64,000 nucleotides of DNA from an uncultured Actinomycetota bacterium (GCA_963767345.1 CAVYDO010000004.1:30939-94938), one strand, 5' to 3'. Shown: positions 1 to 15,285, counted from the stretch's first letter. The notes: generated by a model not told the origin, from the sequence alone. A program made the numbers and translations.

Positions 1-67
1 TGCCGCACAGCCTGCGCATACCCACCCCCGGACCAGCTCGACGAGCACCTGCCGACGCGGTCTCAGT

Positions 68-814
68 CTAGAGCGACGGCCACCGCCGAGCGAGGACGCC
101 TCCGGCGACCACACCAACGAGCACGAGGCCTGCACCGACGGCGATGCCGCGCAGGAAGTCTGAGGACGTTCCCGTGGCGGGTCTGGGCGGCGCGGTGAAG
201 ACCCGGCCGACCGCGGGTGGGGTCTCGACGCGCCGCTCGTCCCTCGCGGCGGCTCGACCATCGAGATCGGTGGTCGAGCCGGCTTCCTCGGTGGTCGAGC
301 CGGGCGACGAAGAAGCCCGTGTCGAGACCACCCCCTCGGCGATCGCCCGGTCGACCGCACCGAAGAACTCGCCGGCCATCCGTCTGGACACCGATCCGAG
401 CATCCGCTGGCCGACCCCGCCGATCATGCCGCCGACGACCGCGTCGGCGGCATATTCGATCGTCGTGGTCTCGATGGTGGTGCTCCCGTCGCCGTCGACT
501 CCGTCGGACTCCCCGGCTCCGCCGGGCGTGAAGCGTACGTCGACCCGTGCCCCGATCGTGCCCGGGGCGCCGGCTCCCTGCAGCCTCATGACGAGGGAGT
601 GCGGCCGTTGGAGGTCGGTCAGCTCGCAGGTGCCGGTGTAGGTGCCGGTGATCGCGGCGACGCCGGCGGTGACGGTCATGTCGTAGGAGTGCTCGGCGGT
701 GGCGACCAGCCGCTCGCAGCCCGGGATCGTGGCGACCAGCACCGCCGGGTCGAGCAGTGCCTCCCACGCCCGCTCGGGCGCGGCGTGCAGGACGTGGCTG
801 CCGGTGATCTTCAT
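68..814 (-). CDS. coxG: CoxG-like SRPBCC domain protein with C-terminal membrane anchor
   Basis: C-terminal part of ORF 68..3364, starting MKITGSHVLHAAPERAWEALLDPAVLVATIPGCE (ATG at 814, ATGA overlap with the large-subunit stop); hydrophobic C-terminal tail; position after the large subunit. Confidence 0.85.
   Translation of the reverse strand: MKITGSHVLHAAPERAWEALLDPAVLVATIPGCERLVATAEHSYDMTVTAGVAAITGTYTGTCELTDLQRPHSLVMRLQGAGAPGTIGARVDVRFTPGGAGESDGVDGDGSTTIETTTIEYAADAVVGGMIGGVGQRMLGSVSRRMAGEFFGAVDRAIAEGVVSTRASSSPGSTTEEAGSTTDLDGRAAARDERRVETPPAVGRVFTAPPRPATGTSSDFLRGIAVGAGLVLVGVVAGGVLARRWPSL
221..329. repeat. Inverted pair of REP-like elements inside coxG
   Basis: GGTCTCGAC...GGCTCGACC at 221-259 and opposite-orientation GGTCGAGCC...GTGTCGAGACC at 289-329; same family as the copies at 9054-9092, 9385-9423 and 26524-26564. 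Confidence 0.75.
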
Positions 815-3252
815 GCGGACTCCTCGGGTCGCTCCTGGGCGGGGTGACGGCGGCGCAGCTCGAACAGCTCGCTCGGTGAGATCGGCATCGAGCTGATCGT
901 CAGTCCCGGGTGGTCGAAGCCCTCGGCGTCGGAGATCGCCGCCGCGAAGACGGCGGCGCCGGGGATGACGCCGGCCTCGCCGGCGCCCTTGATGCCCAGC
1001 GGGTTGAGCGGCGAGGGCGTCTCCAGGTGGTCGATCTCGATGCGCTCGGGAACCTCGGTGGCATAGGGCATCAGGAAGTCCATGAACGACGCGTTGAGGA
1101 GCTGACCGGACTCGTCGTAGACCATCCGCTCGTAGAGCGCTCCCCCGACGCCCTGCGCGACGCCACCGTGGATCTGCCCCTCCACGATCATCGGGTTGAT
1201 CAGGCGGCCGCAGTCGTGGACGACGGCGTACCGCAGGATCCTGATCTCCGCGGTGAGCGGGTCGGTCTCGACGATGACGGCGTGCATTCCCGAGGCGAAG
1301 GTCGACCGCTCCGGGCTGTAGAAGTCCTTGCCCTCGAGGCCGGGCTCGTCGTCGTCGGCGACCGGAGGCCTGCCGGGGTCGCCCACGGAGAACTGGGTCG
1401 CCGCCTTGGACGCCTCGTCGAAGGCGTAGCGAAGCGGGTTGGAGAGCACCGCGATGGTGCCGAGGTCGATCGAGGCCGCGTCGTCGGGGGTGCCGCGGAC
1501 CGACACGACGCCGTCGGAGATCTCGAGATCGGCCTCGTCGGCCTCCAACGCCTCGGCCGCGATCCGCAGCGCCTTCTCCTTCGCACGCAGAGACGCGAGG
1601 TGGATCGCCGAGCCGCTCATCACCGCCGCACGCGACGCGAAGGTGCCGACGGCATAAGGCATCCTGCGGGTGTCGCCGGTGACGATCTCGACGTCCTCGA
1701 AGCGCACGCCGAGCGTGTCGGCGACGATCTGCGCGAAGACCGTCTGGTGTCCCTGCCCCTGGGTCGTGAGGCCCGTCGCGACCTTCACCTTGCCGGAGGT
1801 CTCGATGTGCACGTGCGCACCCTCGTAGGGCCCCACGCCGGTGCCCTCGACGTAGCAGGCGAGCCCGATGCCGACACGCCGCCCCTGCGCCGCCATCTCG
1901 CGTTGGTAGGCCGGGAAGTCGTCCCAGCCGATCAGCTGCTTGAGCTTGACGAGCAGGGCCGGGTAGTCGCCGGAGTCGTACTCCAGCTCGCGACCGTCCT
2001 GGAAGACCAGGCCCTGGTCGTAGGGGAACTCGTCGGGCTGGATGAAGTTGACCGCGCGCACCTCGGTGCGGTCCCTGCCGAGCGCGGCGGCGATCGCGTC
2101 CATGGTGCGCTCCATGACGAAGCAGCCCTGTGGCCGGCCGGCGCCGCGGTAGGGCGTGACCATCACGGCATTGGTGTAGATCGACTCGAAGCGGACCCGG
2201 TAGACGTCGGGCTTGTATGGGCCGAGCAGCTGGGTCGAGGTGATGATCGGGACGATCAGCCCGTACGGCGTGTAGGCGCCGTGGTCGTGCCAGAACATCA
2301 CGTCGAGCGCGAGCAGCCGGCCGTCGTCGTCGAAGGCCACCTCGACGTGGTGCTGCTGCCCGCGCTCGTGGGCCGAGGAGATGAAGTGCTCGCGCCGGTC
2401 CTCGGTGAACTTCACCGGCCGGCCGAGCAGCCGCGCCGCCATCGGCACCAGCAGCTCCTCGGGCCACGGGTGGTTGATCTTGACGCCGAAGCCCCCACCC
2501 ACGTCGGGGGTGATGACGTCGACCTGGGCGAGATCGAGGTCGAGCTTGGCGGCGACGCAGCCGCGCACGCCCGTCGAGGTCTGGGTGGACGACCAGACGG
2601 TCAGTCGCGAGGCGTCCGGGTCCCAGCGCGCCACCACGCCGCGCCCCTCCATCGGCGTACAGGCGCTGCGCTCGATGGTGAGGTCGAGCGACAGCCGGTG
2701 CGGTGCAGATTCGAGCGCCGCCTCGACGTCTCCGGTGTTCTGCTCCATCCGGGCGCCGATATTGTCGGGCACGTCCTCGTGGACGGCGTGCTCGGCCGCG
2801 CGGGACGCCGGGATCCCTACGACGACAGGGAGCAGGTCGTAGGTCACCCTGATCCGCGACAGCGCGTCCTCGGCGACGTAACGGTCCGTCGCGACGACGA
2901 ACGCGATGGCCTCTCCGACGTGGTTGACCTCGCCGGCCGCCAGTGCGTACTGGGTGCGGCCGTGGGTCAGCGCCGGGTGCGGGATGAGCAGCGGCAGCGG
3001 CTCGGCCATCCGCGGCGCCAGGTCGCCGAGGTCGTCGTACGTCCAGACCAGGTGCACCCCCTCGATGTCGAGCACCTCGTCGACGTCGATGTCGACGATC
3101 CGCGCGTGGGCGTGCGGCGAGCGGAGGACGGCGGCGTGCAGCGCACCGTGACGGGCGTCGAGCAGCACGTCGTCGACGTACCGGCCCTTGCCTCGCAGGA
3201 AGCGCTGGTCCTCGGTGCGCTTGACCTTCGTGCCGAACAGCCTGGTGGTCAT
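811..3252 (-). CDS. Xanthine dehydrogenase-family molybdopterin-binding large subunit (CoxL form II-like)
   Basis: 813 aa; motifs GGGFGVK, PYRGAGRP, TFASRAA, GQIHGGVAQGVG, KGAGEAG; lacks the form I CO dehydrogenase AYxCSFR loop. Confidence 0.92.
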   Translation of the reverse strand: MTTRLFGTKVKRTEDQRFLRGKGRYVDDVLLDARHGALHAAVLRSPHAHARIVDIDVDEVLDIEGVHLVWTYDDLGDLAPRMAEPLPLLIPHPALTHGRTQYALAAGEVNHVGEAIAFVVATDRYVAEDALSRIRVTYDLLPVVVGIPASRAAEHAVHEDVPDNIGARMEQNTGDVEAALESAPHRLSLDLTIERSACTPMEGRGVVARWDPDASRLTVWSSTQTSTGVRGCVAAKLDLDLAQVDVITPDVGGGFGVKINHPWPEELLVPMAARLLGRPVKFTEDRREHFISSAHERGQQHHVEVAFDDDGRLLALDVMFWHDHGAYTPYGLIVPIITSTQLLGPYKPDVYRVRFESIYTNAVMVTPYRGAGRPQGCFVMERTMDAIAAALGRDRTEVRAVNFIQPDEFPYDQGLVFQDGRELEYDSGDYPALLVKLKQLIGWDDFPAYQREMAAQGRRVGIGLACYVEGTGVGPYEGAHVHIETSGKVKVATGLTTQGQGHQTVFAQIVADTLGVRFEDVEIVTGDTRRMPYAVGTFASRAAVMSGSAIHLASLRAKEKALRIAAEALEADEADLEISDGVVSVRGTPDDAASIDLGTIAVLSNPLRYAFDEASKAATQFSVGDPGRPPVADDDEPGLEGKDFYSPERSTFASGMHAVIVETDPLTAEIRILRYAVVHDCGRLINPMIVEGQIHGGVAQGVGGALYERMVYDESGQLLNASFMDFLMPYATEVPERIEIDHLETPSPLNPLGIKGAGEAGVIPGAAVFAAAISDAEGFDHPGLTISSMPISPSELFELRRRHPAQERPEESA

Positions 3253-3815
3253 GGGGTCTCGACTCCCCCTGACCCTTCCCGGACGTCATGCGAAGTGGTC
3301 GCCGGGGCAGCCACATCGCATGACGTTGCGGAAAGGTCAGCCGCCCGCAGCACCGCCGCGACAATGTTCTGGTAGCCGGTGCAGCGACAGAGGTTGCCGG
3401 CGATCATCTCCCGCGCCTCGTCCTCGGTCGGGTGCGGGTTGTCGCGCAAGCCCGCGGTGATGGTGGTGAGGAAGCCCGGCGTGCAGAAGCCGCATTGCAG
3501 GCCGTGACAGTCGCTGAACGCCTGCTGCACCGGGCCGAGCCGTCCGGCGGCCGAGCCGTCGTCCTCGGTGAGCCCCTCGACCGTGGTGATCGCCACGCCC
3601 TCGGCCGCCACCGCGAACATCAGGCACGCCCGCATCGGCCGGCCGTCGACGAGCACCGTGCAGGCACCGCAGACGCCGTGCTCGCAGCCGACATGGGTGC
3701 CGGTGAGCCCGCAGTCCTGGCGCAGCGCGTCGGAGAGCAGGCGGCGGGCCGGCACATCGATGAGGTATGCCGCTCCGTTGACCCGCAGCGTGACCTCGTG
3801 GACCTCCTCGGTCAT
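3249..3815 (-). CDS. 2Fe-2S small subunit (CoxS/CutS-like)
   Basis: GCEHGVCGACTV, QCGFCTPG and NLCRCTGY iron-sulfur motifs; ATG at 3815 overlaps the medium-subunit stop. Confidence 0.93.
   Translation of the reverse strand: MTEEVHEVTLRVNGAAYLIDVPARRLLSDALRQDCGLTGTHVGCEHGVCGACTVLVDGRPMRACLMFAVAAEGVAITTVEGLTEDDGSAAGRLGPVQQAFSDCHGLQCGFCTPGFLTTITAGLRDNPHPTEDEAREMIAGNLCRCTGYQNIVAAVLRAADLSATSCDVAAPATTSHDVREGSGGVETP
3283..3326. repeat. Palindrome with 16-bp arms inside the 3' end of the small-subunit gene
   Basis: ACGTCATGCGAAGTGG-N12-CCACATCGCATGACGT, 15/16 complementary. Confidence 0.8.
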
Positions 3816-4753
3816 GCGGCACCACCTGGCCGGGGCCTCGAGACGCCGCTCGCCTGTCCTGAGTAGCCGAGGCACGAGGCGTCTCGAAGGGTGCCTCGCT
3901 GCTCCTCGACCACCGAGAGGCCCAGGGCCCTCTCGTGCGCCCGACGGAGCACCCGGTCGACGAGCACCTCGACCAGGTGCCGGCGAAAGTCGGCACTTGC
4001 GTGCAGGTCGCCCTCCGGCTCGACGCGCGCGGCGGCCTCGGACCCCCATCGGTCGACGGGTACGTCGCTCAGGTCGAGCACCGTGGGCACGTCGGCGACC
4101 GAGACGAGACCGGCGTGCGCGTCGACGACCTCCCCGGCGTCGTCGACGCGCACCAGCCCGGCCACGCCGACGACGGCGTAGTCACCGTGCCGACGGGCGA
4201 TCTCCTCGAAGGCCACCCCGCTGCGCGCGGCGAGCAGCGGGAAGACCGCCTCGACCGCGATCTCGTCGTGCGCGAGGGACGACTCGAGGGGTCCGACGTA
4301 CAGCTCCGCTGCCGGGATCTCCCGGCGGCCGGCCGGCCCGACGGCGGCGACCGAGCCACGCAGCAGTGAGAGCACGACCGGCATCTCGGCCGCCGCGTCC
4401 GCGTGCACGAGCGAGCCGACGGTGGTGCCACGGTTGCGGATGGTCGGGTGGGCGACGTGTCCGAGCGCCTCGCGCAGCAGCGGCTGCGCGAGCGCCGCCT
4501 CGTCGGAGGCGAGCACGTCGGCATGCCGCGCGAGGGCGCCGACGCGGACGCCCTCGGGTGTCACCGACACCCGGTCGAGGCCGGGCAGACCGTTGATGTC
4601 GACCAGCATCGTCGGCGCGGCCAGCCGCATGGAGAGCAGCGGGACGAGGCTCTGTCCACCCGCGAGCACCTTGGCCCCCCGATGCTCCGCGAGCAGCCCG
4701 ACGGCCTCCTCGAGCTCCCGAGGGCGACGGTAGGCGAAAGGGGCGGGCTTCAA
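3812..4753 (-). CDS. FAD-binding medium subunit (CoxM-like)
   Basis: MKPAPFAYRRP, LAGGQSLVP, IRNRGTTVGS, EIARRHGDYA; TTG start. Confidence 0.92.
   Translation of the reverse strand: MKPAPFAYRRPRELEEAVGLLAEHRGAKVLAGGQSLVPLLSMRLAAPTMLVDINGLPGLDRVSVTPEGVRVGALARHADVLASDEAALAQPLLREALGHVAHPTIRNRGTTVGSLVHADAAAEMPVVLSLLRGSVAAVGPAGRREIPAAELYVGPLESSLAHDEIAVEAVFPLLAARSGVAFEEIARRHGDYAVVGVAGLVRVDDAGEVVDAHAGLVSVADVPTVLDLSDVPVDRWGSEAAARVEPEGDLHASADFRRHLVEVLVDRVLRRAHERALGLSVVEEQRGTLRDASCLGYSGQASGVSRPRPGGAA
3834..3914. repeat. REP-like composite element inside the 3' end of the medium-subunit gene
   Basis: GGCCTCGAGACGCCGCTCG...CCTCGACCACCG termini resemble the REP family found elsewhere in the window. Confidence 0.55.
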
Positions 4754-4756
4754 CGG

Positions 4757-6121
4757 CTACCGCGCCCTGCTGGCAGGGGCAGGCCCACGTTCGTCTCGCC
4801 AGTTGACGAGGTGGAAGAAAACGATGACCAAGATGGTGCCGAGAGCGATGCCGCCGAGCTCGAAGTTGTCGGTGATCACCAACGTCACGTTGCCGATGCC
4901 GGCGACGAGACCAGCGGCGAGCGCGACGAGATTGACCGGCTTGCCGAAGTCGACGCCGTTCTCCACCCAGATCTTCGCGCCCACCAGGCCGATCATGCCG
5001 TACAGCACCACGGTGATGCCGCCGAGCACGCCGCCCGGCGTCGCGTTGACGATCGCCCCGAACTTGGGGCACAGGCCGAGCAGGACGGCAACGATCGCGG
5101 CGACGTAGTACGCCGCGGTCGAGTAGACCTTGGTGGCCGACATGACGCCGATGTTCTCGGCGTACGTCGTGGTCGGCGAGCCGCCGAAGGCGGACGCGAG
5201 CGCCGTGGCGATGCCGTCGCCGGCGAGGGCGCGCCCGAGGTATGGGTCGAGGTCGTCGCCGGTCATCTCCGCGACGGCCTTGACGTGGCCGGTGTTCTCA
5301 GCGATCAGGGCGATGACGCCCGGGAGGACGAGCAGGACGAAGGTCAGCGAGAACGACGGGCCGTGCACCACCGACACGCCGTCGGCGAGCTTGCCGCTGG
5401 GCAGCCCGAACCAGTCCGAGGCGCCCACGGAGCTCCACGCCCACATCCGGTCGTGGTCGGTGGGCTCGGGCCCGAGTGCGGGCACCACGGAGCTGATCGT
5501 GCCGAACAGCCCGTCGAAGACCCAGGACAGGAGGTGGCCGAAGACCAACGCCAAGAACACCGCGATGCGGCCCCAGAAGCCGGGCAGCAAGACCGCGGCG
5601 CAGACCATGAACGCCGCGGTGATCAGCGCGACCCACTGGTCCTGCGGCCAGTAGATGCCCGCGACGACCGGCGCCAGGTTGAAGCCGATCAGCATCACCA
5701 CCGCACCGGTGACGGCCGGTGGCAACAGCGTGTGGATGAGCTGTGCGCCGGCGAAGTGCACGGCCAGGCCGACCAGCGTCAGGACTGCGCCGGCGACGAG
5801 GATCGCGCCGGTGACGTCGGCGGAGTCGCCGCCGTCGGCCCGGATCGCGGCGACGCTGGCCACGAAGGACGCGCTGGTGCCGAGGTACGACGGCACCCTG
5901 TTCTGCACGATCAGCAGGAACAGGATCGTGCAGACGCCCGAGAACATGATGGCGAGGTTGGCGTCGAGGCCCATCACGATCGGGAAGACGAAGGTGGCGC
6001 CGAACATCGCCACGACATGCTGGGCGCCGAGGCCGATGGTCTTGCCCCACGGCAGTCGCTGCCGGGGGGAGACCGGCTGGCCGGGGGCCGGATCGACCAC
6101 CTCCCAGGTGAACATCGACAT
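4757..6121 (-). CDS. NCS2-family (uracil/xanthine) permease
   Basis: 454 aa, multi-TM; GAQHVVAMFGAT, YLGTSASF, TTYAENIGV signature. Confidence 0.92.
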   Translation of the reverse strand: MSMFTWEVVDPAPGQPVSPRQRLPWGKTIGLGAQHVVAMFGATFVFPIVMGLDANLAIMFSGVCTILFLLIVQNRVPSYLGTSASFVASVAAIRADGGDSADVTGAILVAGAVLTLVGLAVHFAGAQLIHTLLPPAVTGAVVMLIGFNLAPVVAGIYWPQDQWVALITAAFMVCAAVLLPGFWGRIAVFLALVFGHLLSWVFDGLFGTISSVVPALGPEPTDHDRMWAWSSVGASDWFGLPSGKLADGVSVVHGPSFSLTFVLLVLPGVIALIAENTGHVKAVAEMTGDDLDPYLGRALAGDGIATALASAFGGSPTTTYAENIGVMSATKVYSTAAYYVAAIVAVLLGLCPKFGAIVNATPGGVLGGITVVLYGMIGLVGAKIWVENGVDFGKPVNLVALAAGLVAGIGNVTLVITDNFELGGIALGTILVIVFFHLVNWRDERGPAPASRAR

Positions 6122-6333: not shown

Positions 6334-7122
6334 TCAGTCGGCCGACTCGACGAGCGCAGCCAGCCCGTCCAACAGCCGGGCGAGGCCGAACTCGAAGGTG
6401 TCACGAGCCTCGGCCTCGAGGTACGACGTCGCGTCGGGTGGCTGGTCGAAGCCGCCGCTCGCCGCGATCCGGGTGAGGGCGGGGAAACGCTCGGCGTAGT
6501 CCGGCGCCACCTCCTCGAGCAGCGCGGCGCGGGCGAACCACCAGGTGTCCTCCGCGACGCCGGTCGCCTCGGTGGCCTGGACCGTCTCGATGAACGCCTT
6601 GGCCGATCCGTGCACGTAGCGGCTCAGCGCCCAGACCGACCGCGCCCGGTCACGTGCCGAGAGAGCCGTCTGCTCGAGGACCGCGACCGCCGCCTCGGCG
6701 TTGCGGGTCTCATGGGGGCCGAGGGTCGGCCGGGCGCCCGAGAGCGACAGGAACCAGGGGTGCCGCTGGCAGAGCGCCCAGTTGGCCTCGGCCCACTCGA
6801 CCAGCGCGGCCCGCCAGCCCGCGGACGCGTCGTACGCCGCGGGCAGCTCGGCGAGCACCCGGTCCCACATCAGGTCGAGCAGCTCCGCCTTGCCGGGCAC
6901 GTAGGTGTAGATCGCCATGGGCGTGCGGCCGAGCCGGTCGCCGACCGCCCGCATCGACAGCGCGTCGATGCCCCCCTCGTCGGCGAGCGCGACGGCGGCG
7001 TCGACGATCTCCTCGACGGAGAGCTTGGGCTTCGGGCCACGCGTCCGCGGGGCCTCCGCGCCGGTCCGCCAGAGCAGCCTCATCGACGGCTCGGCGTCGC
7101 CCTGACCCACGTAGAGCACCAC
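6334..7122 (-). CDS. TetR/AcrR-family regulator
   Basis: HTH region LSVEEIVDAAVALADEGGIDALSMRAVGDRLG...IYTYVPGKAEL; divergent from an ABC exporter. Confidence 0.92.
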   Translation of the reverse strand: MVLYVGQGDAEPSMRLLWRTGAEAPRTRGPKPKLSVEEIVDAAVALADEGGIDALSMRAVGDRLGRTPMAIYTYVPGKAELLDLMWDRVLAELPAAYDASAGWRAALVEWAEANWALCQRHPWFLSLSGARPTLGPHETRNAEAAVAVLEQTALSARDRARSVWALSRYVHGSAKAFIETVQATEATGVAEDTWWFARAALLEEVAPDYAERFPALTRIAASGGFDQPPDATSYLEAEARDTFEFGLARLLDGLAALVESAD

Positions 7123-7128
7123 GGCTTG

Positions 7129-7182
7129 CCAACTCCTTACATCGTAAAGTAATCTCGGATCTCCAACTCCTTACGGCGTAAA
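7129..7182. promoter_or_regulatory. Two TetR operator-like sites
   Basis: CCAACTCCTTACATCGTAAA (7129-7148) and CCAACTCCTTACGGCGTAAA (7163-7182), 18/20 identical, each with a TTAC-N-CGTAA palindromic core, in the tetR/drrA divergent spacer. Confidence 0.7.
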
Positions 7183-7199
7183 CTATCAGGAGGCAGAGC

Positions 7200-8222
7200 G
7201 TGACTCCGGCACAACCTTCCAACCCCGAGGGGGGCCAGGTCGCCGCAATCAGCGCGCGCGGGCTGGTCAAGCGGTACGGCGCGCAGCGGGCCCTCGACGG
7301 TTTCGACCTGACCGTGCCGCGCGGCGTGGTCTGGGGCCTGCTCGGGCCCAACGGCGCCGGCAAGACCACCGCGGTCCGCACCTTCGCCACCCTGCTCCGC
7401 TGCGAGGAGGGAGAGGCGCGCGTCGCGGGGCACGACGTACGCACGGAGGCACACGAGGTACGCCGCCGAATCGGGCTCTCGGGCCAGTCGCCGGCGGTGG
7501 ACGAGATCCTCGGCGGCCGGCAGAACCTGGTGCTGTTCGGCCGCCTCAACCGGCTCGCACGCCGTGACGCCGAGCACCGGGCCGAGGAGCTGCTCACCCG
7601 GTTCGAGCTCGTCGAGGCCGCTGACAAGCCGGTCAAGCAGTACTCCGGTGGGATGCGTCGGCGACTCGACCTCGCCGTCACCCTGCTGCTGCGGCCGGAG
7701 GTGCTCTTCCTCGACGAGCCCACGACGGGGCTCGACCCGCGCAACCGCCTGGAGGTGTGGGAATCGATCCGCTCGCTCGTCGCCGACGGCACCACCGTCC
7801 TGCTCACCACCCAGTACCTCGACGAGGCCGACCAGCTCGCCTCCAGGGTCACCGTCATGGACCGCGGCCGGGTGATCGCCGAGGGACGGCCCGATGACCT
7901 GAAGCGCCAGATCGGTGGCGAGCGCCTCGAGGTGACGGCCGAGGACGCCCGCGACCTCGACGCGGTGGTCGCCGCCGTCGCCCGGCGGGCCACCGCCACT
8001 CCGCAGGTCGACCCCGAGGCCGTGCGGGTCAGCGCTCCGGTCAGCGACCCGGTAGACGCGGTCGGCGACGTCCTCGCGGAGCTGCGGGCGGGCGACGTAC
8101 GGCTCGCGGACATCGGCCTGCGACGTCCCACTCTCGACGACGTGTTCCTCCAGATCACCGGACATCACGCGGAAGCGGACATGGAGCCGACCGACCCGGC
8201 CGAGAGGACCGTCGCCCGATGA
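7200..8222 (+). CDS. DrrA-family ABC exporter ATP-binding protein
   Basis: GPNGAGKTT, YSGGMRRRLDLA, LFLDEPTTGLD. Confidence 0.93.
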   Translation: MTPAQPSNPEGGQVAAISARGLVKRYGAQRALDGFDLTVPRGVVWGLLGPNGAGKTTAVRTFATLLRCEEGEARVAGHDVRTEAHEVRRRIGLSGQSPAVDEILGGRQNLVLFGRLNRLARRDAEHRAEELLTRFELVEAADKPVKQYSGGMRRRLDLAVTLLLRPEVLFLDEPTTGLDPRNRLEVWESIRSLVADGTTVLLTTQYLDEADQLASRVTVMDRGRVIAEGRPDDLKRQIGGERLEVTAEDARDLDAVVAAVARRATATPQVDPEAVRVSAPVSDPVDAVGDVLAELRAGDVRLADIGLRRPTLDDVFLQITGHHAEADMEPTDPAERTVAR

Positions 8223-9046
8223 GCGCCACCGTGCTCAAGCCGGAGACCCGCGGCCACTCCCCCCTCTTCTGGGCGGCCCGCGACGCGCTGCTCATCGCCG
8301 GCAGGGACGTCTCCCACTGGGTCCGCGAGCCGCAGCTGATCCTGTGGACGCTGCTGTTCCCGATCATGTTCGTGCTGCTCTTCGCCTACGTCCTCGGCAG
8401 CTCGATGGTCGTGCCCGGCGGCGGCAGCTACCAGGACTACCTGATGCCCGGCATGTTCGTGCAGACGATGGCCTTCGGCCTCGCGGAGACGGTGATGTCC
8501 GTGCAGGCCGACAACGCGAAGGGCGTGATGGACCGTTTCCGCTCGATGCCGATCGCGCCGTCGGCCGTGGTGGTCGGACGCATCCTGGCCAACCTCCTCT
8601 ACTCCTCGGTGAGCCTGGTCGTGATGATCGGCTGCGGACTGGCCATGGGATGGCGGTGGCACGACGGCGTCGGCGGCCTCCTGGCCGGCGTCCTGCTCCT
8701 GCTCCTGCTCCGGCTGGCGATGATGTGGGTCGGGCTGGTGCTCGGTCTCAAGGCGACCAGCCCGGAGATGGCCAACGCGCTCTTCGGCCTCCTCTACCCG
8801 GTCACGATGCTCAGCAGTGCGTTCGCGAGCCCCGACCTGATGCCGGGCTGGCTCGGCACGATCGCCGAGTGGAACCCCCTCTCGTGGACCATCACCGCGG
8901 TGCGGGACGTCTTCGGCAACCCCTCCGGCGGCGCCGACGGCTTCCTCGCCGACCACGCCGTCCTTCTCGCGTTCGGTTGGCCGGTCGTCGTCTCCGCCCT
9001 CACCCTGCCCCTCGCCGTGCGCGCCTATCGGCGGCTGAGTCGCTGA
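8219..9046 (+). CDS. DrrB-family ABC-2 permease
   Basis: About 6 TM segments; GVMDRFRSMPI and WNPLSWTITAVR; ATGA overlap with the ATPase gene. Confidence 0.9.
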   Translation: MSATVLKPETRGHSPLFWAARDALLIAGRDVSHWVREPQLILWTLLFPIMFVLLFAYVLGSSMVVPGGGSYQDYLMPGMFVQTMAFGLAETVMSVQADNAKGVMDRFRSMPIAPSAVVVGRILANLLYSSVSLVVMIGCGLAMGWRWHDGVGGLLAGVLLLLLLRLAMMWVGLVLGLKATSPEMANALFGLLYPVTMLSSAFASPDLMPGWLGTIAEWNPLSWTITAVRDVFGNPSGGADGFLADHAVLLAFGWPVVVSALTLPLAVRAYRRLSR

Positions 9047-9053
9047 GGAATCT

Positions 9054-9201: not shown

Positions 9202-9409
9202 CCGGCGTGAGGTACGAGCCCCGAGAACCGCCGGTCGAGCCGGCGTGAGGTACGAGCCCCGAGAACCGCCGGTCGAGCCGGCGTGAGGTACGAGCCCCGA
9301 GAACCGCCGGTTGAGCCGGCGTGAGGTACGAGCCCCGAGAACCGCCGGTCGAGCCGGCGTGAGGTACGAGCCCCGAGAACCGCCGGTCGAGCCGGCGTGA
9401 GGTACGAGC
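9202..9409. repeat. 38-bp tandem repeat, 5 full units plus a partial
   Basis: Unit CCGGCGTGAGGTACGAGCCCCGAGAACCGCCGGTCGAG, one C>T variant in unit 3, no spacers; runs into a complete REP-like copy at 9385-9423. Confidence 0.95.
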
Positions 9410-9428
9410 GCCGAGTCGAGACCAGACC

Positions 9429-10715
9429 TCAGCGCAGGGCGTCGAGGGCGCGGAGGGCGACGGCGGCGTCGAGACGCAGGTGCGGGTCGCTGGAGAGCGG
9501 GCCGAGGAGCCGCTCGAGCTTGCCGACGCGGTAGCGCATCGTGTTGTAGTGGAAGAACTGGGCGCGGGCGGCCTCGGCGATGTTGAAGTTGGTGTCGATG
9601 AGGACCTGGAGGGTGTTGCGCAGATCGGCGGCCTCGTCGGTGCGGGCGGCCAGCGGTCCGAGCACGTCCTCGGCGAAGTCGCGGAGCTCGGCCTGGTCGG
9701 GCACGAGGGCGATCAGCCGGTGCACGCCGAGGTCGTCGAAGTGGGTGACCGAACCGGGCCCGTGGACCCGCCGGCCGAGCTCGACGGCACGGCGGGCCTG
9801 GGCGTACGCCGCCGACAGGCCGTCGAGACCGGTGGTGACTCGGCTGACGCCGACGGCGAAGCTGCGCCGGCCGCCGCCCCGGTCACCGGCTATGCCCTTG
9901 ACGACCCGGTCGAGCAGGCCGTCCACCTCGGGCAGCAAGGTCGCCACCTCGGAGGAGAAGTCGGCGGTCGGGATGCCGCGACCGGCGTCGCGGGTCACCT
10001 GACGCCAGGCCCTCGCGAACCGGGCCTGCCACTCGCGCTGCTGGCTGCCGGGCACCTGGTCGTCCTCACCCGGCGGGTCGATCTCCGCGCACACGACCCG
10101 CACCGGCCGGTCGAGCCGCCAACCGAAGGTCTCGGCGTGCTCGGCGACCCAGGTCGCGTCGACCGCCCGGCCCAGGAAGAGGTCGCGCAGGAAGTCCGCC
10201 TGGTACTTGTGCTGAACCGCGGCGACCGCCTGCTCCCGGGTGATCACCAGCGCCGCGACGATCGCGACGCGCTCCAGCGCCTGGACGTCGTCGGCGCCGA
10301 TCTCGCCGGAGGCGTCGATCGCGACCAGCCGGCCCAGGTCGCCGTCGCCGGCACGGATCGGCATGCACCTGACCTGCCCGGCCACCGAGTCATTGTCGGA
10401 GGCAACCCGAAGGCCGGCGTCGGGCACCCTCTCCACTCTCAACCGCCCCGTGGGGTCGAGGAGCCCGGCGGCACGCAACCTCGCGCGGAGGACGGCGTCG
10501 ACTCCCCCGGCCGCCATCTCCCGGCCGTCGGTGGAGGTCACCACGATGCCGAGCCCGAGGACGCCGGAGACCTCGATGCTGATCCGCTCGAGGTCGTCGC
10601 CGTCGAGCACCTGGCGGGTCAGCGCCGTGTGGAGGGCGTCGGCGCGGGCCAGCGCGGCCTTCTTCGAGCCCAAACCTTGCCCCTTTCCGACGGTGTTACT
10701 GGCAACTGACGACAA
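9429..10715 (-). CDS. PucR/CdaR-family transcriptional regulator
   Basis: C-terminal HTH LRNTLQVLIDTNFNIAEAARAQFFHYNTMRYRVGKLERLLG; start uncertain (TTG 10715, or TTG 10673 which has an RBS-like GGAAAGGGG). Confidence 0.85.
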   Translation of the reverse strand: MSSVASNTVGKGQGLGSKKAALARADALHTALTRQVLDGDDLERISIEVSGVLGLGIVVTSTDGREMAAGGVDAVLRARLRAAGLLDPTGRLRVERVPDAGLRVASDNDSVAGQVRCMPIRAGDGDLGRLVAIDASGEIGADDVQALERVAIVAALVITREQAVAAVQHKYQADFLRDLFLGRAVDATWVAEHAETFGWRLDRPVRVVCAEIDPPGEDDQVPGSQQREWQARFARAWRQVTRDAGRGIPTADFSSEVATLLPEVDGLLDRVVKGIAGDRGGGRRSFAVGVSRVTTGLDGLSAAYAQARRAVELGRRVHGPGSVTHFDDLGVHRLIALVPDQAELRDFAEDVLGPLAARTDEAADLRNTLQVLIDTNFNIAEAARAQFFHYNTMRYRVGKLERLLGPLSSDPHLRLDAAVALRALDALR

Positions 10716-10750
10716 CTGACACGCTAGCGCGCCGCCGCTACCTTGGCACG

Positions 10751-11521
10751 GTGCCAGCGCTGACCCACGGCTCGATCCCGGCGGCGGCGACGAGCCGCGT
10801 TCGCCGGCGCCTCGCCGCCACCGAGGACGGACCGGTTCGGGTGCTGCACCGCGGCGCGCACGCTCTGTACGTCGATCTGGGTGCCCGCGTCGAGCCGGCG
10901 ACGGACACCCCGGTCCCCGGCGTCGTCGGCATCGTAAGTGCGTCCGCCGCCGCGCTGCCGTTGGCCCTCCGGCTGGCCCGGCCCACCCTCGGCGCGCTGG
11001 CCGGCGCGGACGCCCGCGTCGCGGGGGGCGTGCTCCATCTCGACGACCGGCCGGTGCGGATCACCAGGCTGCTCGGCGCCCGCGTGCCGTCGCTCGCGGC
11101 CGGGTTGCCCGTGCCGGAGGTTCCCGAGGGCGGCGCGCGGCGCCTCCTCGACGCGCTCCCGGCGGTGTCGGCCGAGTCCGTCCCGCGGCTGGTCGGCTCC
11201 GGCCCGGGGCTGACGCCGCTCGGCGACGACGTGCTCTGCGGCTGGCTCGCCTGGCACCGCGCCGCGGGCACGGCGACGGCGGCGGTCGACGACGCCTGCC
11301 GCCGCTCCTGGTCGCGCACAACCACCCTGTCGGCGGCGCTGCTGGCCGACGCGCTGGAGGGCGAGGTGGTGCCCGAGTTCGCGGACCTGGTCGCCTCGCT
11401 CGGCACCCCCGCCGCAGCATCGGCGGCTGCGGCGCTGACCCGCCTCGGCGCGACCTCCGGTGCCGGCATGCTGTACGGCGTCTGGTCGGCTTCGCTCGCG
11501 CACCGGGCGGCCGCGGCATGA
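10751..11521 (+). CDS. DUF2877 protein (AllH/YlbF-like)
   Basis: LVGSGPGLTPLGDDVLCGWL, TTTLSAALL and GATSGAG motifs; coupled to the fdrA-like gene. Confidence 0.8.
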   Translation: MPALTHGSIPAAATSRVRRRLAATEDGPVRVLHRGAHALYVDLGARVEPATDTPVPGVVGIVSASAAALPLALRLARPTLGALAGADARVAGGVLHLDDRPVRITRLLGARVPSLAAGLPVPEVPEGGARRLLDALPAVSAESVPRLVGSGPGLTPLGDDVLCGWLAWHRAAGTATAAVDDACRRSWSRTTTLSAALLADALEGEVVPEFADLVASLGTPAAASAAAALTRLGATSGAGMLYGVWSASLAHRAAAA

Positions 11522-12960
11522 CCGAGCCCGCGGTGCATGTGGAGGTCCGGCCCGGCGCCTACGCCGACTCGGTCGCGCTGCTCGAGGTGAGCCGCCGCGT
11601 GCAAGGAGTCGGCGGTGTCGCCGCCGCACAGGTGGCCATGGCGACCGCCCTCAACCTCGAGGTGCTGACGCAGATGGGCTTCCTCCTGCCCGACGGCACC
11701 TCGCCCAACGACCTGGTGGTCGCGGTCCGGCTCACGCCCGACGCCTCCGACGGCGCACTCGATGCCGCACTCGCGGTCGCCGACGCAGCCCTCGGCGAGC
11801 GCTCGCCCGGCTCCGGCGAGGCGGAGATCGCGCCGCCGCGGACCACGGCGTCCGCGCTGCGCCGTACCCCCGGCGCCCTCGTCCTGGTCTCCGTGCCGGG
11901 CGCGCACGCCTTCGCCGAGGCGATCGACGCCCTCGACGCCGGCAGCGACGTGATGATCTTCAGCGACAACGTGCCGGTCGAGCAGGAGGTCGTGCTCAAG
12001 CGGATCGCCGGCCATCGTGACCTCCTGGTCATGGGACCGGACTGCGGCACAGCGGTCGTCGACGGGCTCGGCCTCGGCTTCGCCAACGCCGTCTCGCCCG
12101 GTCCGGTCGGCGTCGTCGCGGCCTCCGGCACCGGCTGCCAGCAGCTGATGACGCTGCTCGACGCCGCCGGCGTCGGGGTCTCGTACGCGCTCGGAGTCGG
12201 CGGTCGCGACCTGTCCGTCGAGGTGGGCGGACTCTCCGCGCGCGAGGCGCTGCGCCGGCTCGACGCCGACCCCGCCGTCGAGCTCATCGTGCTGGTCTCC
12301 AAGCCGCCCGCACCGGAGGTCGCGGCCGACCTCACGACGTACGCCGAGACGCTGGCCACGCCGGTCGAGCTCGCGCTGCTCGGTGAGGGGCAGCCCGACC
12401 TGAGCGCCGCCGCCGAGAGGGTGCTACGCCGACTCGGCCGGCCCACGCCGTCCTGGGCCCGATGGCTCCCGCCGTCGGCGCGGCAGGCCACCGGCCGCTT
12501 CCTGCGCGGCCTCTACGTCGGCGGGACCCTGAGCGCCGAAGCCGCCCTGATCGCCGCCGACCGCCTCGGTCACGTCGCGACCGCCGCCGGCGCGCTCGAC
12601 CGACCGGGACATGCCGTGGTCGACTTCGGCGCCGACGAGCTGACCGGCGGCCGCGCGCACCCGATGATCGACCCGTCGCTGCGCTCCGCGGAGTTCGAGC
12701 GGCTCGCGGCCGACCCCGACACCGGGGTGCTGCTGCTCGACGTGGTCCTCGGCCACGGCGCCGAGGCCGACCCGGCGGCCGGTCTCGTCCCGCTGGTCGG
12801 AGCCACCGACGTGCCCGTCGTCGTCGCACTGGTCGGCACCGAGCTCGATCCGCAGGTTCGCTCCGACCAGGCGGAGCGGATGGTGGCCGCGGGCGCGGAG
12901 GTCTACGTCTCCAACGCCGACGCGACCCGGCGGGCTCTCGAGCTGCTGGGGGCGTCATGA
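11518..12960 (+). CDS. fdrA: FdrA-family protein (AllF-like, succinyl-CoA synthetase-related fold)
   Basis: YADSVALL, MIFSDNV, MGPDCGT, ASGTGCQ, GVGGRDLS, RAHPMIDP. Confidence 0.88.
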   Translation: MTEPAVHVEVRPGAYADSVALLEVSRRVQGVGGVAAAQVAMATALNLEVLTQMGFLLPDGTSPNDLVVAVRLTPDASDGALDAALAVADAALGERSPGSGEAEIAPPRTTASALRRTPGALVLVSVPGAHAFAEAIDALDAGSDVMIFSDNVPVEQEVVLKRIAGHRDLLVMGPDCGTAVVDGLGLGFANAVSPGPVGVVAASGTGCQQLMTLLDAAGVGVSYALGVGGRDLSVEVGGLSAREALRRLDADPAVELIVLVSKPPAPEVAADLTTYAETLATPVELALLGEGQPDLSAAAERVLRRLGRPTPSWARWLPPSARQATGRFLRGLYVGGTLSAEAALIAADRLGHVATAAGALDRPGHAVVDFGADELTGGRAHPMIDPSLRSAEFERLAADPDTGVLLLDVVLGHGAEADPAAGLVPLVGATDVPVVVALVGTELDPQVRSDQAERMVAAGAEVYVSNADATRRALELLGAS

Positions 12961-14348
12961 CGGTCCCGCGCGTCGTCACCGCCGGAGCCGGCCACCTCGC
13001 CGACGCGGTCGAGGCGCAGGCCGCCGAGGTCACCCGTGTCGACTGGCAGCCGCCGATGACCGGCACGGAGACCGACCTCGGCACCGTGCTGGCCGACCCG
13101 CGGCGGCCGGACGCCAATGCGCGCGCGCTCGCGGCGTTCCTCGCCGTGACCGCGCGGCTGGTGGACGTGGCGCCGGCGAGCGAGCTGCTCGGCCTCGAGC
13201 GAGGGCAGTTCCTCCACGCCGGTCCGCCCATCGACTGGGAGCGCGCCTCCGGTCCGCTCCGCGGTGCGCTGATGGGCGCCGCGGCCCTCGAGGGCCTGGT
13301 CGACGACCCCGAGGACGCCGCCGCCCTCTTCGCGCGGAGCGGGAGCGTGTCCTTCGAGCCCTGCCACCAGCACGCCTCGGTCGGGCCGATGGCCGGTGTG
13401 GTCTCACCGTCGATGTGGATGTGGGTCCTGGAGGACCCGGCGACGGGTCGTCGTACCCACTGCACCCTCAACGAGGGCCTCGGCAAGGTGCTGCGGTACG
13501 GCGCCTACTCGCCCGAGGTGCTCGACCGGCTGCGCTGGATGGGCGACGTCCTCGGGCCCCTGCTCCGGTCCGCCGTACGCGCCGGAGACCGTCCGGACAT
13601 CACGGGCATCCTCACGCAGATGCTGCAGATGGGCGACGAGGCCCACAACCGCAACCGGGCGGGCACACTGATGCTGCTGCGCGACCTCGCGCCGGCAATG
13701 GTCACCTCGAGTCTCGGCGGCGGCTTCGACGCCGGCGACATCGCCCGGGCGATGGCCTTCATCGGCGGCAACGACCACTTCTTCCTCAACCTGGCGATGC
13801 CCGCCTGCAAGCTAGCCCTCGACGCCGCGCGCCGCATCGAGGGCTCGACCATGGTCGTGGCGATGGCCCGCAACGGCACCGACTTCGGCATCCAGGTCGC
13901 CGGCACCGGCGACGAGTGGTTCACGGGTCCAGCGCAGCAGGTCGACGGGCTCTACCTCGGCGACTACGGCCCGGCCGACGCGAACCCCGACATCGGCGAC
14001 TCCGCGATCACCGAGACCGCCGGCATCGGCGGCTTCGCGATGGCCACGGCGCCGGCGATCGTGCGGTTCGTCGGCGGCTCGGTGCCTGACGCGCTGGCCA
14101 CTACGCGGCGCATGCACGAGATCACCCTCGGCGACAACCCGCGCTGGCAGGTGCCGGTCCTCGACTTCCAGGGCACGCCGACCGGCATCGACGTCACCCG
14201 CGTCTGCCGCACCGGCATCCTGCCGCAGATCAACACCGGCATGGCGGGCCGGGTGGCCGGCGTCGGGCAGGTGGGTGCGGGGCTCGTCACCCCGCCTGCC
14301 GAGATCTTCCCGAAGGCGCTCGCCGCCCTCGCCGCCCGCGTTCCCTGA
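12957..14348 (+). CDS. DUF1116 protein (AllG/YlbE-like)
   Basis: ATG at 12957 (ATGA overlap); LHAGPP, VGPMAGVVSPSM, MGDEAHNRN, NDHFFLNL, PDIGDSAITE, INTGMAG. Confidence 0.85.
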   Translation: MTVPRVVTAGAGHLADAVEAQAAEVTRVDWQPPMTGTETDLGTVLADPRRPDANARALAAFLAVTARLVDVAPASELLGLERGQFLHAGPPIDWERASGPLRGALMGAAALEGLVDDPEDAAALFARSGSVSFEPCHQHASVGPMAGVVSPSMWMWVLEDPATGRRTHCTLNEGLGKVLRYGAYSPEVLDRLRWMGDVLGPLLRSAVRAGDRPDITGILTQMLQMGDEAHNRNRAGTLMLLRDLAPAMVTSSLGGGFDAGDIARAMAFIGGNDHFFLNLAMPACKLALDAARRIEGSTMVVAMARNGTDFGIQVAGTGDEWFTGPAQQVDGLYLGDYGPADANPDIGDSAITETAGIGGFAMATAPAIVRFVGGSVPDALATTRRMHEITLGDNPRWQVPVLDFQGTPTGIDVTRVCRTGILPQINTGMAGRVAGVGQVGAGLVTPPAEIFPKALAALAARVP

Positions 14349-14362
14349 CCTGCCGCCGGCGA

Positions 14363-14848
14363 TCACACACGCTCGACGTGGTCGGCGAGATCGAAGGCCG
14401 GGTCGGTGAGGCCGCCGTCCTCGAAGTCGACGAGCCGGCAGGTCTCGCCGTCCCAGAGGACGTTGGCGGGGTCGAGATCGGCGATCCCCAGCGCCGTCAG
14501 CCTCGGGTCTGGCAGGGCGCCCTCGGTTGTCAGCCAGACGCACGCCGCGGCCTGGGCACTGCCGACGAGCGCCGGGTCCTGACACGCCCGGCCGAGCGAC
14601 GCCGTCTGGGCTGAGGTGAGGGGTACGCCGCCCAGCGGCTCCCCCGCCAGCCGCTCCATCACCACGACCGGTGCACCGCCCTCGACCTCCCGGCGCAACG
14701 GCCGAGGCGCCAAGCCCGGTGCGTGCTCGGCGAGCAGAACCAGGCAGGCCCACTCGCGGTCCGCCTCGCCCCTGTCCCAGCTCACGAACCGCTTGCGCAC
14801 CTCGGTGTCCGTGAACCTCAGCTCGTGCGTCTGCGACTGAGTCTGCAC
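14363..14848 (-). pseudogene. Degenerate aminoglycoside-phosphotransferase/choline-kinase-like gene
   Basis: Retains VMERL hinge, ADLDPANVLWD and LVDFEDGG, but stops about 18 aa after DFE and the hinge-to-catalytic-loop distance looks short. Confidence 0.55.
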
Positions 14849-14941
14849 GACATCACCCAAGGGAGGGCCGCCCCGGTCGCCTTGCTTGACGTCAAGCAAG
14901 GCGATCACTACCTCACGTCGTCAGACGCCAGGTCTGCCGGT

Positions 14942-15259: not shown

Positions 15260-15285
15260 CCCCGCTCAGCCCGACTCAGCCCGGT

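What the first reader, a model, noticed from the sequence alone, without database searches (positions are those of the whole stretch)
10751..14348. allH-allF-allG (oxamate carbamoyltransferase-like) trio without carbamate kinase or allantoin genes
Seen: DUF2877, FdrA and DUF1116 genes joined by ATGA overlaps, divergent from pucR and near the permease-hydroxylase operon; no carbamate kinase, allantoinase or ring-opening amidohydrolase in this window. Known: the E. coli homologues (fdrA, ylbE, ylbF = allFGH) form oxamate carbamoyltransferase in anaerobic allantoin use, followed by carbamate kinase. Inference: in this presumably aerobic actinobacterium they may process a different ureide produced downstream of the Mo-hydroxylase, which would be an uncharacterised heterocycle catabolic route.
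Basis: partly seen in the sequence, partly recalled or inferred. Interest (0 to 1): 0.6.

Follow-up and report, generated by a model that had tools for sequence, protein, structure and literature searches.

The report
AllHFG trio of barbiturate pathway
The three genes are real relatives of E. coli's oxalurate-splitting enzyme. Across actinobacteria they sit with a uracil-type permease, a molybdenum hydroxylase, barbiturase and carbamate kinase, so they most likely split the opened pyrimidine ring with phosphate to yield ATP, a route I found in no paper.

Summary
AllH (10751-11521), AllF (11518-12960) and AllG (12957-14348) are intact, joined by ATGA overlaps, and divergent from pucR.

"Without carbamate kinase" is true only of the window. 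The genome has one carbamate kinase, on another contig, directly upstream of a barbiturase about 87% identical to the crystallised enzyme.

In related genomes all these genes form one 20-40 kb supercluster: allG-allF-allH <> pucR-permease-FAD-FeS-Mo subunit-CoxG-amidase-hyuAB-CK-barbiturase-CoA transferase. In another class of the phylum they form a single compact operon.

- AllG was found in 55 of 57 genomes with a CK-linked barbiturase.
- It was found in 0 of 3 Rhodococcus genomes, whose barbiturase lacks CK.
- AllGs linked to barbiturase form their own clade, apart from the E. coli/allantoin clade.
- No AllD, the enzyme that makes oxalurate, was found in this genome.

Best reading: uracil -> barbiturate -> ureidomalonate, which AllHFG cleaves with phosphate to carbamoyl phosphate plus malonamate; CK then makes ATP. 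This rests on gene context only and is untested biochemically.

I found no paper describing it. This scan has noted the same idea on at least 13 other genomes.

The parts
10751..11521 (+). allH (DUF2877 subunit), 256 aa
   Evidence: PF11392, 76.5 bits. ATGA overlap with allF. Invariant G-x-G-x-GLTP-x-GDD motif in 11 orthologues. AF2 model has pLDDT 91 and no solved-fold match.
11518..12960 (+). allF (FdrA-like subunit), 480 aa
   Evidence: PF00549 98 bits; NF004760 FdrA 380 bits. 38% identical to E. coli FdrA. PDB 3DMY, 237 bits.
12957..14348 (+). allG (DUF1116 subunit), 463 aa
   Evidence: PF06545 306 bits. 47% identical to E. coli YlbE. Single copy in the genome. Falls in the barbiturase-linked clade.
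9429..10715 (-). pucR-family regulator, divergent from allH
   Evidence: HTH_30 and GGDEF_2 domains. Conserved at this position in 12 of 14 close loci and next to barbiturase in the compact operons.
4757..6121 (-). NCS2 nucleobase permease, uracil/RutG-like
   Evidence: PF00860 224 bits. RutG 344 bits and uracil permease 249 bits, against xanthine permease 143 bits; all are below their cut-offs.
3812..4753 (-). Mo-hydroxylase FAD subunit
   Evidence: FAD_binding_5 and CO_deh_flav_C.
3249..3815 (-). Mo-hydroxylase 2Fe-2S subunit (start approximate)
   Evidence: Fer2 and Fer2_2 in ORF 3249-4049. The first ~80 codons of that ORF overlap the FAD gene.
811..3252 (-). Mo-hydroxylase large subunit, form II CoxL type; candidate uracil/thymine dehydrogenase
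   Evidence: MoCoBD_1/2. NF040766, 1489 bits. PYRGAGR loop, not AYxCSFR. Orthologues of 71-84% identity lie directly upstream of hyuA-hyuB-CK-barbiturase in 11 loci, and orthologues of 65-68% lie in compact barbiturase-CK-allHFG operons.
63..767 (-). coxG-like accessory gene
   Evidence: PF06240, 52.6 bits.
6334..9046 (.). TetR (6334-7122, -) plus ABC-2 efflux pair (7200-9046, +): a local insertion, not part of the system
   Evidence: Pfam. No TetR, ABC ATPase or ABC permease hits in any of 14 close loci, where the permease abuts pucR or allH.

Best explanation
The trio is the carbamoyltransferase of a phosphorolytic variant of the oxidative pyrimidine (barbiturate) pathway.

Proposed steps:
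1. The NCS2 permease imports uracil or thymine.
2. The form II CoxL-type Mo-hydroxylase oxidises it to barbiturate.
3. Barbiturase, here on contig C3, opens the ring to ureidomalonate (N-malonylurea). This is an N-acylurea one CH2 longer than oxalurate.
4. AllH-AllF-AllG cleaves the carbamoyl-N bond with phosphate, giving carbamoyl phosphate plus malonamate.
5. The carbamate kinase next to barbiturase converts carbamoyl phosphate and ADP to ATP, NH3 and CO2.
6. The cluster's amidase-signature enzyme hydrolyses malonamate to malonate.
7. A family III CoA-transferase and an AccD/AccA-type carboxyltransferase take malonate to acetyl-CoA.

PucR is the likely regulator.

Shown here: gene identities, synteny, co-occurrence and phylogeny. 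Inferred: every substrate and reaction of the trio, the hydroxylase and the amidase.
For: **CK and barbiturase in this genome**
- The genome's only carbamate kinase (NF009007 288 bits, cut-off 266; TIGR00746 310 bits) sits directly upstream of a barbiturase.
- That barbiturase scores 656 bits against PDB 5HWE 'Barbiturase', with about 87% identity, versus about 309 bits to cyanuric acid hydrolases.

**Links around barbiturase**
- CK is immediately upstream of barbiturase in 75 of 80 orthologous loci from many actinobacterial genera.
- Orthologues of the window's Mo subunit lie directly upstream in 11 of them.

**Links around the trio**
- In 13 of 14 close relatives the trio is contiguous with pucR and/or the permease-hydroxylase operon.
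- AllG and barbiturase lie about 18-40 kb apart on one contig in most of these genomes.
- Full superclusters were read in Nocardioides sp. R1-1, Pseudonocardia spirodelae and Janibacter.
- A different class of the phylum has one co-directional operon: barbiturase-permease-CK-allH-allF-allG-FAD-FeS-Mo subunit, with pucR divergent.
- Genome G021 has permease-orf-barbiturase-like-allH-allF-allG-FAD-FeS-Mo subunit with overlapping stops and starts.

**Co-occurrence**
- AllG is present in 55 of 57 genomes with a CK-linked barbiturase.
- Three of three Rhodococcus genomes with barbiturase have neither CK nor AllG. They carry two amidases instead. Rhodococcus is where the urea-forming ureidomalonase route was defined (PMC3758960).
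- In the same-genus set, 15 genomes have both, 8 have neither, 2 have AllG only and 0 have barbiturase only.
- In the phylum sample, 18 of 21 genomes with an AtzD-family gene have AllG, against 30 of 379 without one.

**Phylogeny, chemistry and other genes**
- Barbiturase-linked AllGs form one clade (SH-aLRT 99), separate from the E. coli/allantoin-linked clade.
- E. coli AllFGH phosphorolyses the N-acylurea oxalurate (PMC11326118). Ureidomalonate is its malonyl homologue.
- The permease is nearest to RutG and uracil permeases.
- The amidase, CoA-transferase III and carboxyltransferase in the cluster fit a malonamate/malonate endpoint.
Against: - No enzyme of this clade has been assayed. Everything rests on gene context, and related genomes are not independent samples.
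- In this genome the trio and CK-barbiturase are on different contigs.
- I found no shared operator that would tie the two loci together.
- hyuA-hyuB (caprolactamase-like, ATP-dependent) co-varies with CK and AllFGH, and its role is unexplained.
- In the sister AllG clade hyuAB stands in the operon and no barbiturase is present in the genome. The trio's true substrate could therefore be a HyuAB product.
- The cluster amidase is 41-43% identical to the amidase next to Rhodococcus barbiturase. It might itself be a ureidomalonase.
- Genome G019 keeps the trio but shows no barbiturase or CK; it is 92% complete.
- An allantoinase, and uricase with OHCU decarboxylase, lie near the two loci in this genome.
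- The genome has urease, so avoiding urea is not a necessity.
Confidence: 0.62

Rival explanations
1. The trio is an ordinary oxalurate-specific oxamate carbamoyltransferase that finishes allantoin (purine) breakdown, as in E. coli.
For: It is 38-47% identical to E. coli AllF and AllG. Allantoinase AllB lies 2.9 kb outside the window. Uricase and OHCU decarboxylase lie upstream of the hyuAB-CK-barbiturase locus.
Against: - No AllD/Ldh_2 gene was found; the best hit scores 20.5 bits.
- No true AllC was found; the best hit scores 202 bits against a cut-off of 598.
- Allantoinase, OHCU decarboxylase and uricase occur in none of the 80-95 related loci.
- AllG falls outside the clade that holds E. 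coli and an actinobacterial allB/C/D/E-linked AllG.
Confidence: 0.08
2. The trio belongs to the same catabolic island but acts on a different ring-opened ureide. Candidates are the product of the ATP-dependent HyuAB lactamase-like enzyme (for example from 5-methylbarbiturate or thymine, or another hydroxylated heterocycle) or a biuret/carboxybiuret-type compound.
For: - hyuAB is present in about 57 of 80 barbiturase loci and absent from the CK-less Rhodococcus loci.
- The sister AllG clade sits in FAD-FeS-Mo subunit-hyuA-hyuB-allF-allG operons in genomes without barbiturase.
- allFGHK lies next to triuret/biuret genes in Nitrospira (PMC12625717).
Against: The compact operons of another class have barbiturase, CK and allHFG but no hyuAB. 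The barbiturase here is about 87% identical to the characterised enzyme.
Confidence: 0.2
3. The trio is a CoA-ligase-like enzyme, as FdrA is often annotated, that activates malonate or malonamate rather than forming carbamoyl phosphate.
For: AllF has succinyl-CoA-synthetase-alpha-like domains. The cluster handles malonate through CoA enzymes.
Against: Purified E. coli AllFGH is a transcarbamylase that needs no CoA (PMC11326118). CK presence tracks AllG presence. A separate CoA-transferase is already in the cluster.
Confidence: 0.05
4. The trio is a decaying remnant, left non-functional when a rearrangement separated it from CK and barbiturase.
For: The supercluster is split in this genome. A TetR/ABC insertion lies next to pucR. 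AllH evolves fast, with dN/dS of 0.53-0.68.
Against: All three frames are intact with GC3 of 0.93-0.94 and translational coupling. dN/dS is below 1 for all three. CK and barbiturase are intact elsewhere in the genome.
Confidence: 0.03

Closest known systems
E. coli oxamic transcarbamylase AllF-AllG-AllH with carbamate kinase AllK (allFGHK; Kim & Kim 2024, PMC11326118)
   Same: It has the same three protein families: FdrA-like, DUF1116 and DUF2877. The genes are translationally coupled. A carbamate kinase partner exists in the genome. The presumed chemistry is the same: phosphorolysis of an N-acylurea to carbamoyl phosphate.
   Different: - Gene order is H-F-G, not F-G-H-K.
- CK is not in the operon.
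- Identity is only 38%, 47% and 37%.
- AllF lacks about 60 C-terminal residues, and AllG has about 45 extra N-terminal residues.
- The partners are barbiturase and a Mo-hydroxylase, not allB/C/D/E.
- It falls in a separate AllG clade.
- The host is aerobic.
Oxidative pyrimidine pathway of Rhodococcus erythropolis: uracil/thymine dehydrogenase, barbiturase, ureidomalonase (Soong et al. 2001/2002, as cited in PMC3758960 and PMC4051656)
   Same: Barbiturase is 83% identical to the Rhodococcus genes. Orthologous permease and Mo-hydroxylase genes lie next to barbiturase in Rhodococcus genomes.
   Different: Rhodococcus genomes have no CK, no AllG and no hyuAB. They carry two amidases beside barbiturase and release urea. 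The route proposed here would release carbamoyl phosphate and gain ATP.
Catabolic ornithine transcarbamylase plus carbamate kinase (arginine deiminase pathway)
   Same: The logic is the same: a ureido group is removed by phosphate and cashed in as ATP by carbamate kinase. This comparison rests on established knowledge.
   Different: The transcarbamylase fold is unrelated, and its substrate is an N-alkylurea.
allFGHK next to triuret/biuret genes in Nitrospira MAGs (PMC12625717)
   Same: This is another case of AllFGH placed beside a non-allantoin ureide pathway.
   Different: The partner genes differ (biuH, trtA, atzF). Those authors still read it as oxalurate degradation.

Membership tests
AllFGH-type carbamoyltransferase (FdrA/DUF1116/DUF2877 complex) | All three subunit families are present | tested here: met
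   PF11392 76.5 bits; PF00549 plus NF004760 380 bits; PF06545 306 bits.
AllFGH-type carbamoyltransferase (FdrA/DUF1116/DUF2877 complex) | The three genes are co-transcribed and coupled | tested here: met
   ATGA overlaps at 11518 and 12957.
AllFGH-type carbamoyltransferase (FdrA/DUF1116/DUF2877 complex) | A catabolic carbamate kinase partner is present | tested here: met
   One CK exists in the genome, on contig C3 and not in the operon. In relatives it lies in the same cluster or operon. CK is absent where AllG is absent.
AllFGH-type carbamoyltransferase (FdrA/DUF1116/DUF2877 complex) | Forms carbamoyl phosphate from an N-acylurea plus phosphate | not testable with these tools
   Needs an enzyme assay.
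E. coli-type oxalurate-specific OXTCase (anaerobic allantoin pathway) | A ureidoglycolate dehydrogenase AllD in the genome supplies oxalurate | tested here: not met
   Best PF02615 hit scores 20.5 bits, below the 38.8 cut-off. The controls rang in 5 genomes.
E. coli-type oxalurate-specific OXTCase (anaerobic allantoin pathway) | Conserved linkage to allB/allC/allD/allE | tested here: not met
   An allantoinase lies near the locus in this genome only. It was found in 0 of 95 related loci.
E. coli-type oxalurate-specific OXTCase (anaerobic allantoin pathway) | AllG groups with the allantoin-linked AllGs | tested here: not met
   Quick ML tree of 51 rows. The window falls in the barbiturase-linked clade (99). 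E. coli, G485 (with allB/C/D/E) and G288 form another clade (99).
Oxidative pyrimidine (barbiturate) pathway | A true barbiturase is present | tested here: met
   656 bits to PDB 5HWE 'Barbiturase', against 309 bits to cyanuric acid hydrolases.
Oxidative pyrimidine (barbiturate) pathway | A uracil/thymine dehydrogenase is present | tested here: inconclusive
   The Mo-hydroxylase is assigned by context only. The permease is uracil/RutG-like. I found no sequence for this enzyme in the papers searched.
Oxidative pyrimidine (barbiturate) pathway | A ureidomalonase yields urea plus malonate | tested here: inconclusive
   An amidase-signature gene is in the cluster, but it is only 41-43% identical to the Rhodococcus barbiturase-adjacent amidase. 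Its activity is unknown.

The most novel reading that the evidence does not exclude
Many Actinomycetota finish oxidative uracil/thymine breakdown by phosphorolysis rather than hydrolysis. An AllHFG-type 'ureidomalonate carbamoyltransferase' makes carbamoyl phosphate, which gives ATP through CK, plus malonamate, replacing ureidomalonase and urea. The same clusters would also put sequences to uracil/thymine dehydrogenase (a form II CoxL-type Mo-hydroxylase that NCBIfam currently names aerobic CO dehydrogenase) and to a malonamidase. They would also give the caprolactamase-like HyuAB a role as an ATP-driven opener of cyclic ureides.
Probability: 0.55. Interest if true: 0.7.

Novelty: new variant of a known kind. 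Interest (0 to 1): 0.6.

Why it matters
- It would give the AllFGH enzyme family, characterised only in 2024, a second substrate and a second pathway.
- It would add an ATP-conserving, urea-free ending to the little-studied oxidative pyrimidine pathway.
- It would assign a function to a large 'form II CO dehydrogenase-like' clade that is routinely misnamed.
- It would supply candidate genes for enzymes for which I found no sequence in the literature searched: uracil/thymine dehydrogenase and the step after barbiturase.
- The prediction can be tested directly with three or four recombinant proteins and commercially available barbiturate.

Tried and rejected
- **Shared PucR operator.** I looked for one linking the two loci of this genome. 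Ten pucR-allH intergenic regions share short blocks, but I could define no operator. The k-mers shared between the promoters of the two loci were ribosome-site or start-codon coincidences. Inconclusive.
- **Promoter and terminator scan** of 9000-15400 found nothing.
- **AllG N-terminal extension.** An earlier scan note suggested that this extension equals the C-terminal piece of E. coli FdrA. BLASTP gave no alignment here. The segments are short, so this is not decisive.
- **AllH fold.** The AF2 model is confident (pLDDT 91.4). Foldseek against the PDB gave no match at E <= 0.001. VIA-align wide gave a best Z of 3.5. This gave no mechanistic lead, and it does not prove that the fold is new.
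- **Allantoicase (PF03561).** The search found nothing, but the controls were silent too, so it says nothing.
- **Cyanuric acid pathway.** NCBIfam's cyanuric acid amidohydrolase model passes its cut-off. I rejected this reading because the protein is far closer to the crystallised barbiturase.
- **Urease-negative logic.** This is the rationale given for E. coli. It does not apply here, because a urease alpha subunit is present.
Full report
**Observation**

The window is G000:C4:30939-94938 of a 4.38 Mb, 5-contig, 71-75% GC genome. An earlier scan note calls it Nocardioides. This fits: Nocardioides sp. R1-1 groups with same-genus genomes in my AllG tree.

The three ORFs are as described:
- AllH, 10751-11521: PF11392, 76.5 bits.
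- AllF, 11518-12960: Ligase_CoA; FdrA model NF004760, 380 bits.
- AllG, 12957-14348: PF06545, 306 bits.

The ATGA overlaps at 11518 and 12957 are in the sequence. pucR (9429-10715, minus strand) is divergent.

Further left lie a TetR gene and an ABC-2 efflux pair (6334-9046). Then, on the minus strand, come:
- an NCS2 permease (4757-6121),
- FAD (3812-4753), 2Fe-2S (3249-about 3815) and Mo (811-3252) subunits of a hydroxylase,
- coxG (63-767).

The trio is intact. GC3 is 0.93-0.94, and dN/dS against four orthologues is below 1: AllG 0.19-0.31, AllF 0.36-0.43, AllH 0.53-0.68.

**Where the missing partners are**

A genome-wide search finds one carbamate kinase, at C3:2413919-2414842. It scores 310 bits on TIGR00746 and 288 bits on NF009007, whose cut-off is 266.

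Its downstream neighbour is an AtzD-family protein. It scores 656 bits and is about 87% identical to PDB 5HWE 'Barbiturase', against about 309 bits to cyanuric acid hydrolases.

Upstream of CK lie three paralogous unknown ORFs and hyuA-hyuB, which are nearest to caprolactamase. Further upstream are an acyltransferase, uricase and OHCU decarboxylase. Downstream of barbiturase is a family III CoA-transferase.

**Synteny in relatives**

AllG occurs in 16 of 24 same-genus genomes and in none of 16 genomes from other families of the order.

In 13 of 14 close loci the trio is contiguous with pucR and/or the permease-FAD-FeS-Mo subunit operon. The TetR/ABC pair is absent from all of them, so it is a local insertion.

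Barbiturase occurs in the same genomes. In the same-genus set 15 have both, 8 have neither, 2 have AllG only and 0 have barbiturase only. It usually lies 18-40 kb from AllG on the same contig.

I read the full supercluster in Nocardioides sp. R1-1, Pseudonocardia spirodelae and Janibacter sp. HTCC2649. Its order is allG-allF-allH <> pucR-permease-FAD-FeS-Mo subunit-CoxG-amidase (or CN-hydrolase)-hyuA-hyuB-NmrA-like-CK-barbiturase, followed by CoA-transferase III and an AccD/AccA-type carboxyltransferase.

In this genome the supercluster is split between C4 and C3. Neither break is at a contig end, so this is not an assembly artefact.

**Barbiturase-centred view**

I fetched 80 loci with barbiturases 83-88% identical to this one, from Knoellia, Janibacter, Terrabacter, Intrasporangium, Pseudonocardia, Phycicoccus, Nocardioides, Rhodococcus and many MAGs.
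- CK is directly upstream of barbiturase in 75.
- hyuAB is present in about 57.
- The window's Mo-subunit orthologue is directly upstream of hyuA in 11.

AllG is present in 55 of 57 genomes with a CK-linked barbiturase. The two misses are MAGs.

Three Rhodococcus genomes act as a natural control. They have barbiturase with orthologous permease and hydroxylase genes, but no CK anywhere, no AllG and no hyuAB. They carry two amidases next to barbiturase instead. Rhodococcus is the genus in which barbiturate was shown to go to urea plus malonate through ureidomalonase (PMC3758960).

**Independent lineages**

I sampled 400 genomes of the phylum, each at least 90% complete.
- 21 have an AtzD-family gene.
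- 48 have AllG.
- 18 have both.

In one family of another class the genes form a single co-directional operon: pucR <> barbiturase-like (66-70% identity)-permease-CK-allH-allF-allG-FAD-FeS-Mo subunit (65-68%). It has no hyuAB.

Genome G021 has permease-orf-barbiturase-like-allH-allF-allG-FAD-FeS-Mo subunit with overlapping stops and starts. A CK lies 13 kb away.

A quick ML tree of 51 AllGs gives three groupings:
- All barbiturase-linked copies form one clade (28 rows, SH-aLRT 99).
- Its sister is a clade from FAD-FeS-Mo subunit-hyuA-hyuB-allF-allG operons in genomes without barbiturase.
- Both stand apart from the clade holding E. coli YlbE and an actinobacterial AllG flanked by allB, allC, allD and allE.

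The careful tree search did not finish, so this is the quick tree.

**Allantoin rival**

An allantoinase (TIGR03178, 570 bits) lies at C4:26532-27992, beside the cluster amidase. Uricase and OHCU decarboxylase lie beside the C3 locus. None of these occurs in any related locus.

The genome has no AllD/Ldh_2 member and only a weak AllC-like M20 protein. I read these as chance neighbours within nucleobase-catabolic regions.

**Mechanism**

E. coli AllFGH cleaves oxalurate, an N-acylurea, with phosphate to oxamate plus carbamoyl phosphate, and AllK then makes ATP (PMC11326118). Barbiturase produces ureidomalonate (3-oxo-3-ureidopropanoate), the malonyl homologue of oxalurate (PMC3758960).

The simplest reading of the conserved set is:
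1. Uracil or thymine is imported and oxidised to barbiturate.
2. Barbiturase opens the ring to ureidomalonate.
3. AllHFG plus phosphate gives carbamoyl phosphate and malonamate.
4. CK makes ATP from the carbamoyl phosphate.
5. The amidase converts malonamate to malonate.
6. The CoA-transferase and carboxyltransferase take malonate to acetyl-CoA.

The permease's best models are RutG and uracil permease, not xanthine permease. The Mo subunit has the form II CoxL loop PYRGAGR, although NCBIfam names it a CO dehydrogenase.

All substrates are inferred. The role of HyuAB is open. It co-varies with CK and AllFGH, and it replaces barbiturase in the sister clade. It may therefore open a second cyclic ureide, for example 5-methylbarbiturate, with ATP.

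**Novelty**

Full-text searches found no paper that links AllFGH, DUF1116 or DUF2877 with barbiturate, ureidomalonate or pyrimidines. The nearest is a report of allFGHK beside triuret genes in Nitrospira.

This scan's own notes already hold the same idea for at least 13 other genomes. I read them after reaching the reading independently. They are not independent evidence.

**Unpublished genomes**

- The 48-of-50 tally, the 55-of-57 total and the 80-locus counts include G079 (locus L075). Without it the tally is 47 of 49.
- The phylum tallies include G351 (both genes) and G118, G270, G327 and G491 (AllG only). Without these five, 17 of 20 genomes with an AtzD-family gene have AllG, and 26 genomes are AllG-only among 395.
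- No conclusion depends on these genomes.

Noticed in passing
window 6334-9046: A TetR repressor plus a DrrA-like ABC ATPase and an ABC-2 permease are inserted between pucR and the nucleobase permease. No such genes occur at this place in 14 related loci.
   Followed up: partly
G000:C4:26532-29960 (L132:12533-15961), just left of the window: Allantoinase AllB (TIGR03178, 570 bits) lies next to the cluster's amidase-signature gene, with a DUF6766 gene and a 138-aa ORF between the amidase and coxG. The allantoinase, DUF6766 and the small ORF were found in none of 95 related loci.
   Followed up: yes
L005:6821-9806 (G000:C3:2410820-2413805): Three tandem paralogous ORFs (301, 304 and 332 aa; 36-55% identical to each other) lie between hyuB and CK. 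They have no Pfam or NCBIfam hit, and their N-termini look like a helix-turn-helix. Relatives have an NmrA-like gene at this position instead.
   Followed up: partly
L147, L148, L149 (genomes G349, G437, G371): FAD-FeS-Mo subunit-hyuA-hyuB-allF-allG operons occur in genomes where no AtzD-family gene was found. A caprolactamase-like ATP-dependent hydrolase stands where barbiturase would be.
   Followed up: partly
window 811-3252: NCBIfam NF040766 names this subunit 'aerobic carbon-monoxide dehydrogenase large subunit' (1489 bits). It carries the form II PYRGAGR loop, and its conserved context is pyrimidine catabolism, so the name is probably wrong for this clade.
   Followed up: partly
window 10751-11521: AllH (DUF2877) gives a confident AF2 model (pLDDT 91.4), a beta-rich N-terminal half followed by a helical C-terminal half. 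No solved structure matches it above Z 3.5. The invariant motif is G-x-G-x-GLTP-x-GDD.
   Followed up: partly
window 14363-14908 (-): A 181-aa ORF matches only positions 173-210 of the 239-position APH phosphotransferase profile, near its own C-terminus. It may be a truncated or mis-started gene directly downstream of allG.
   Followed up: no
L035 (genome G019): This same-genus genome keeps allHFG and the permease-hydroxylase operon, without pucR. No barbiturase and no carbamate kinase were found; the genome is 92% complete.
   Followed up: partly
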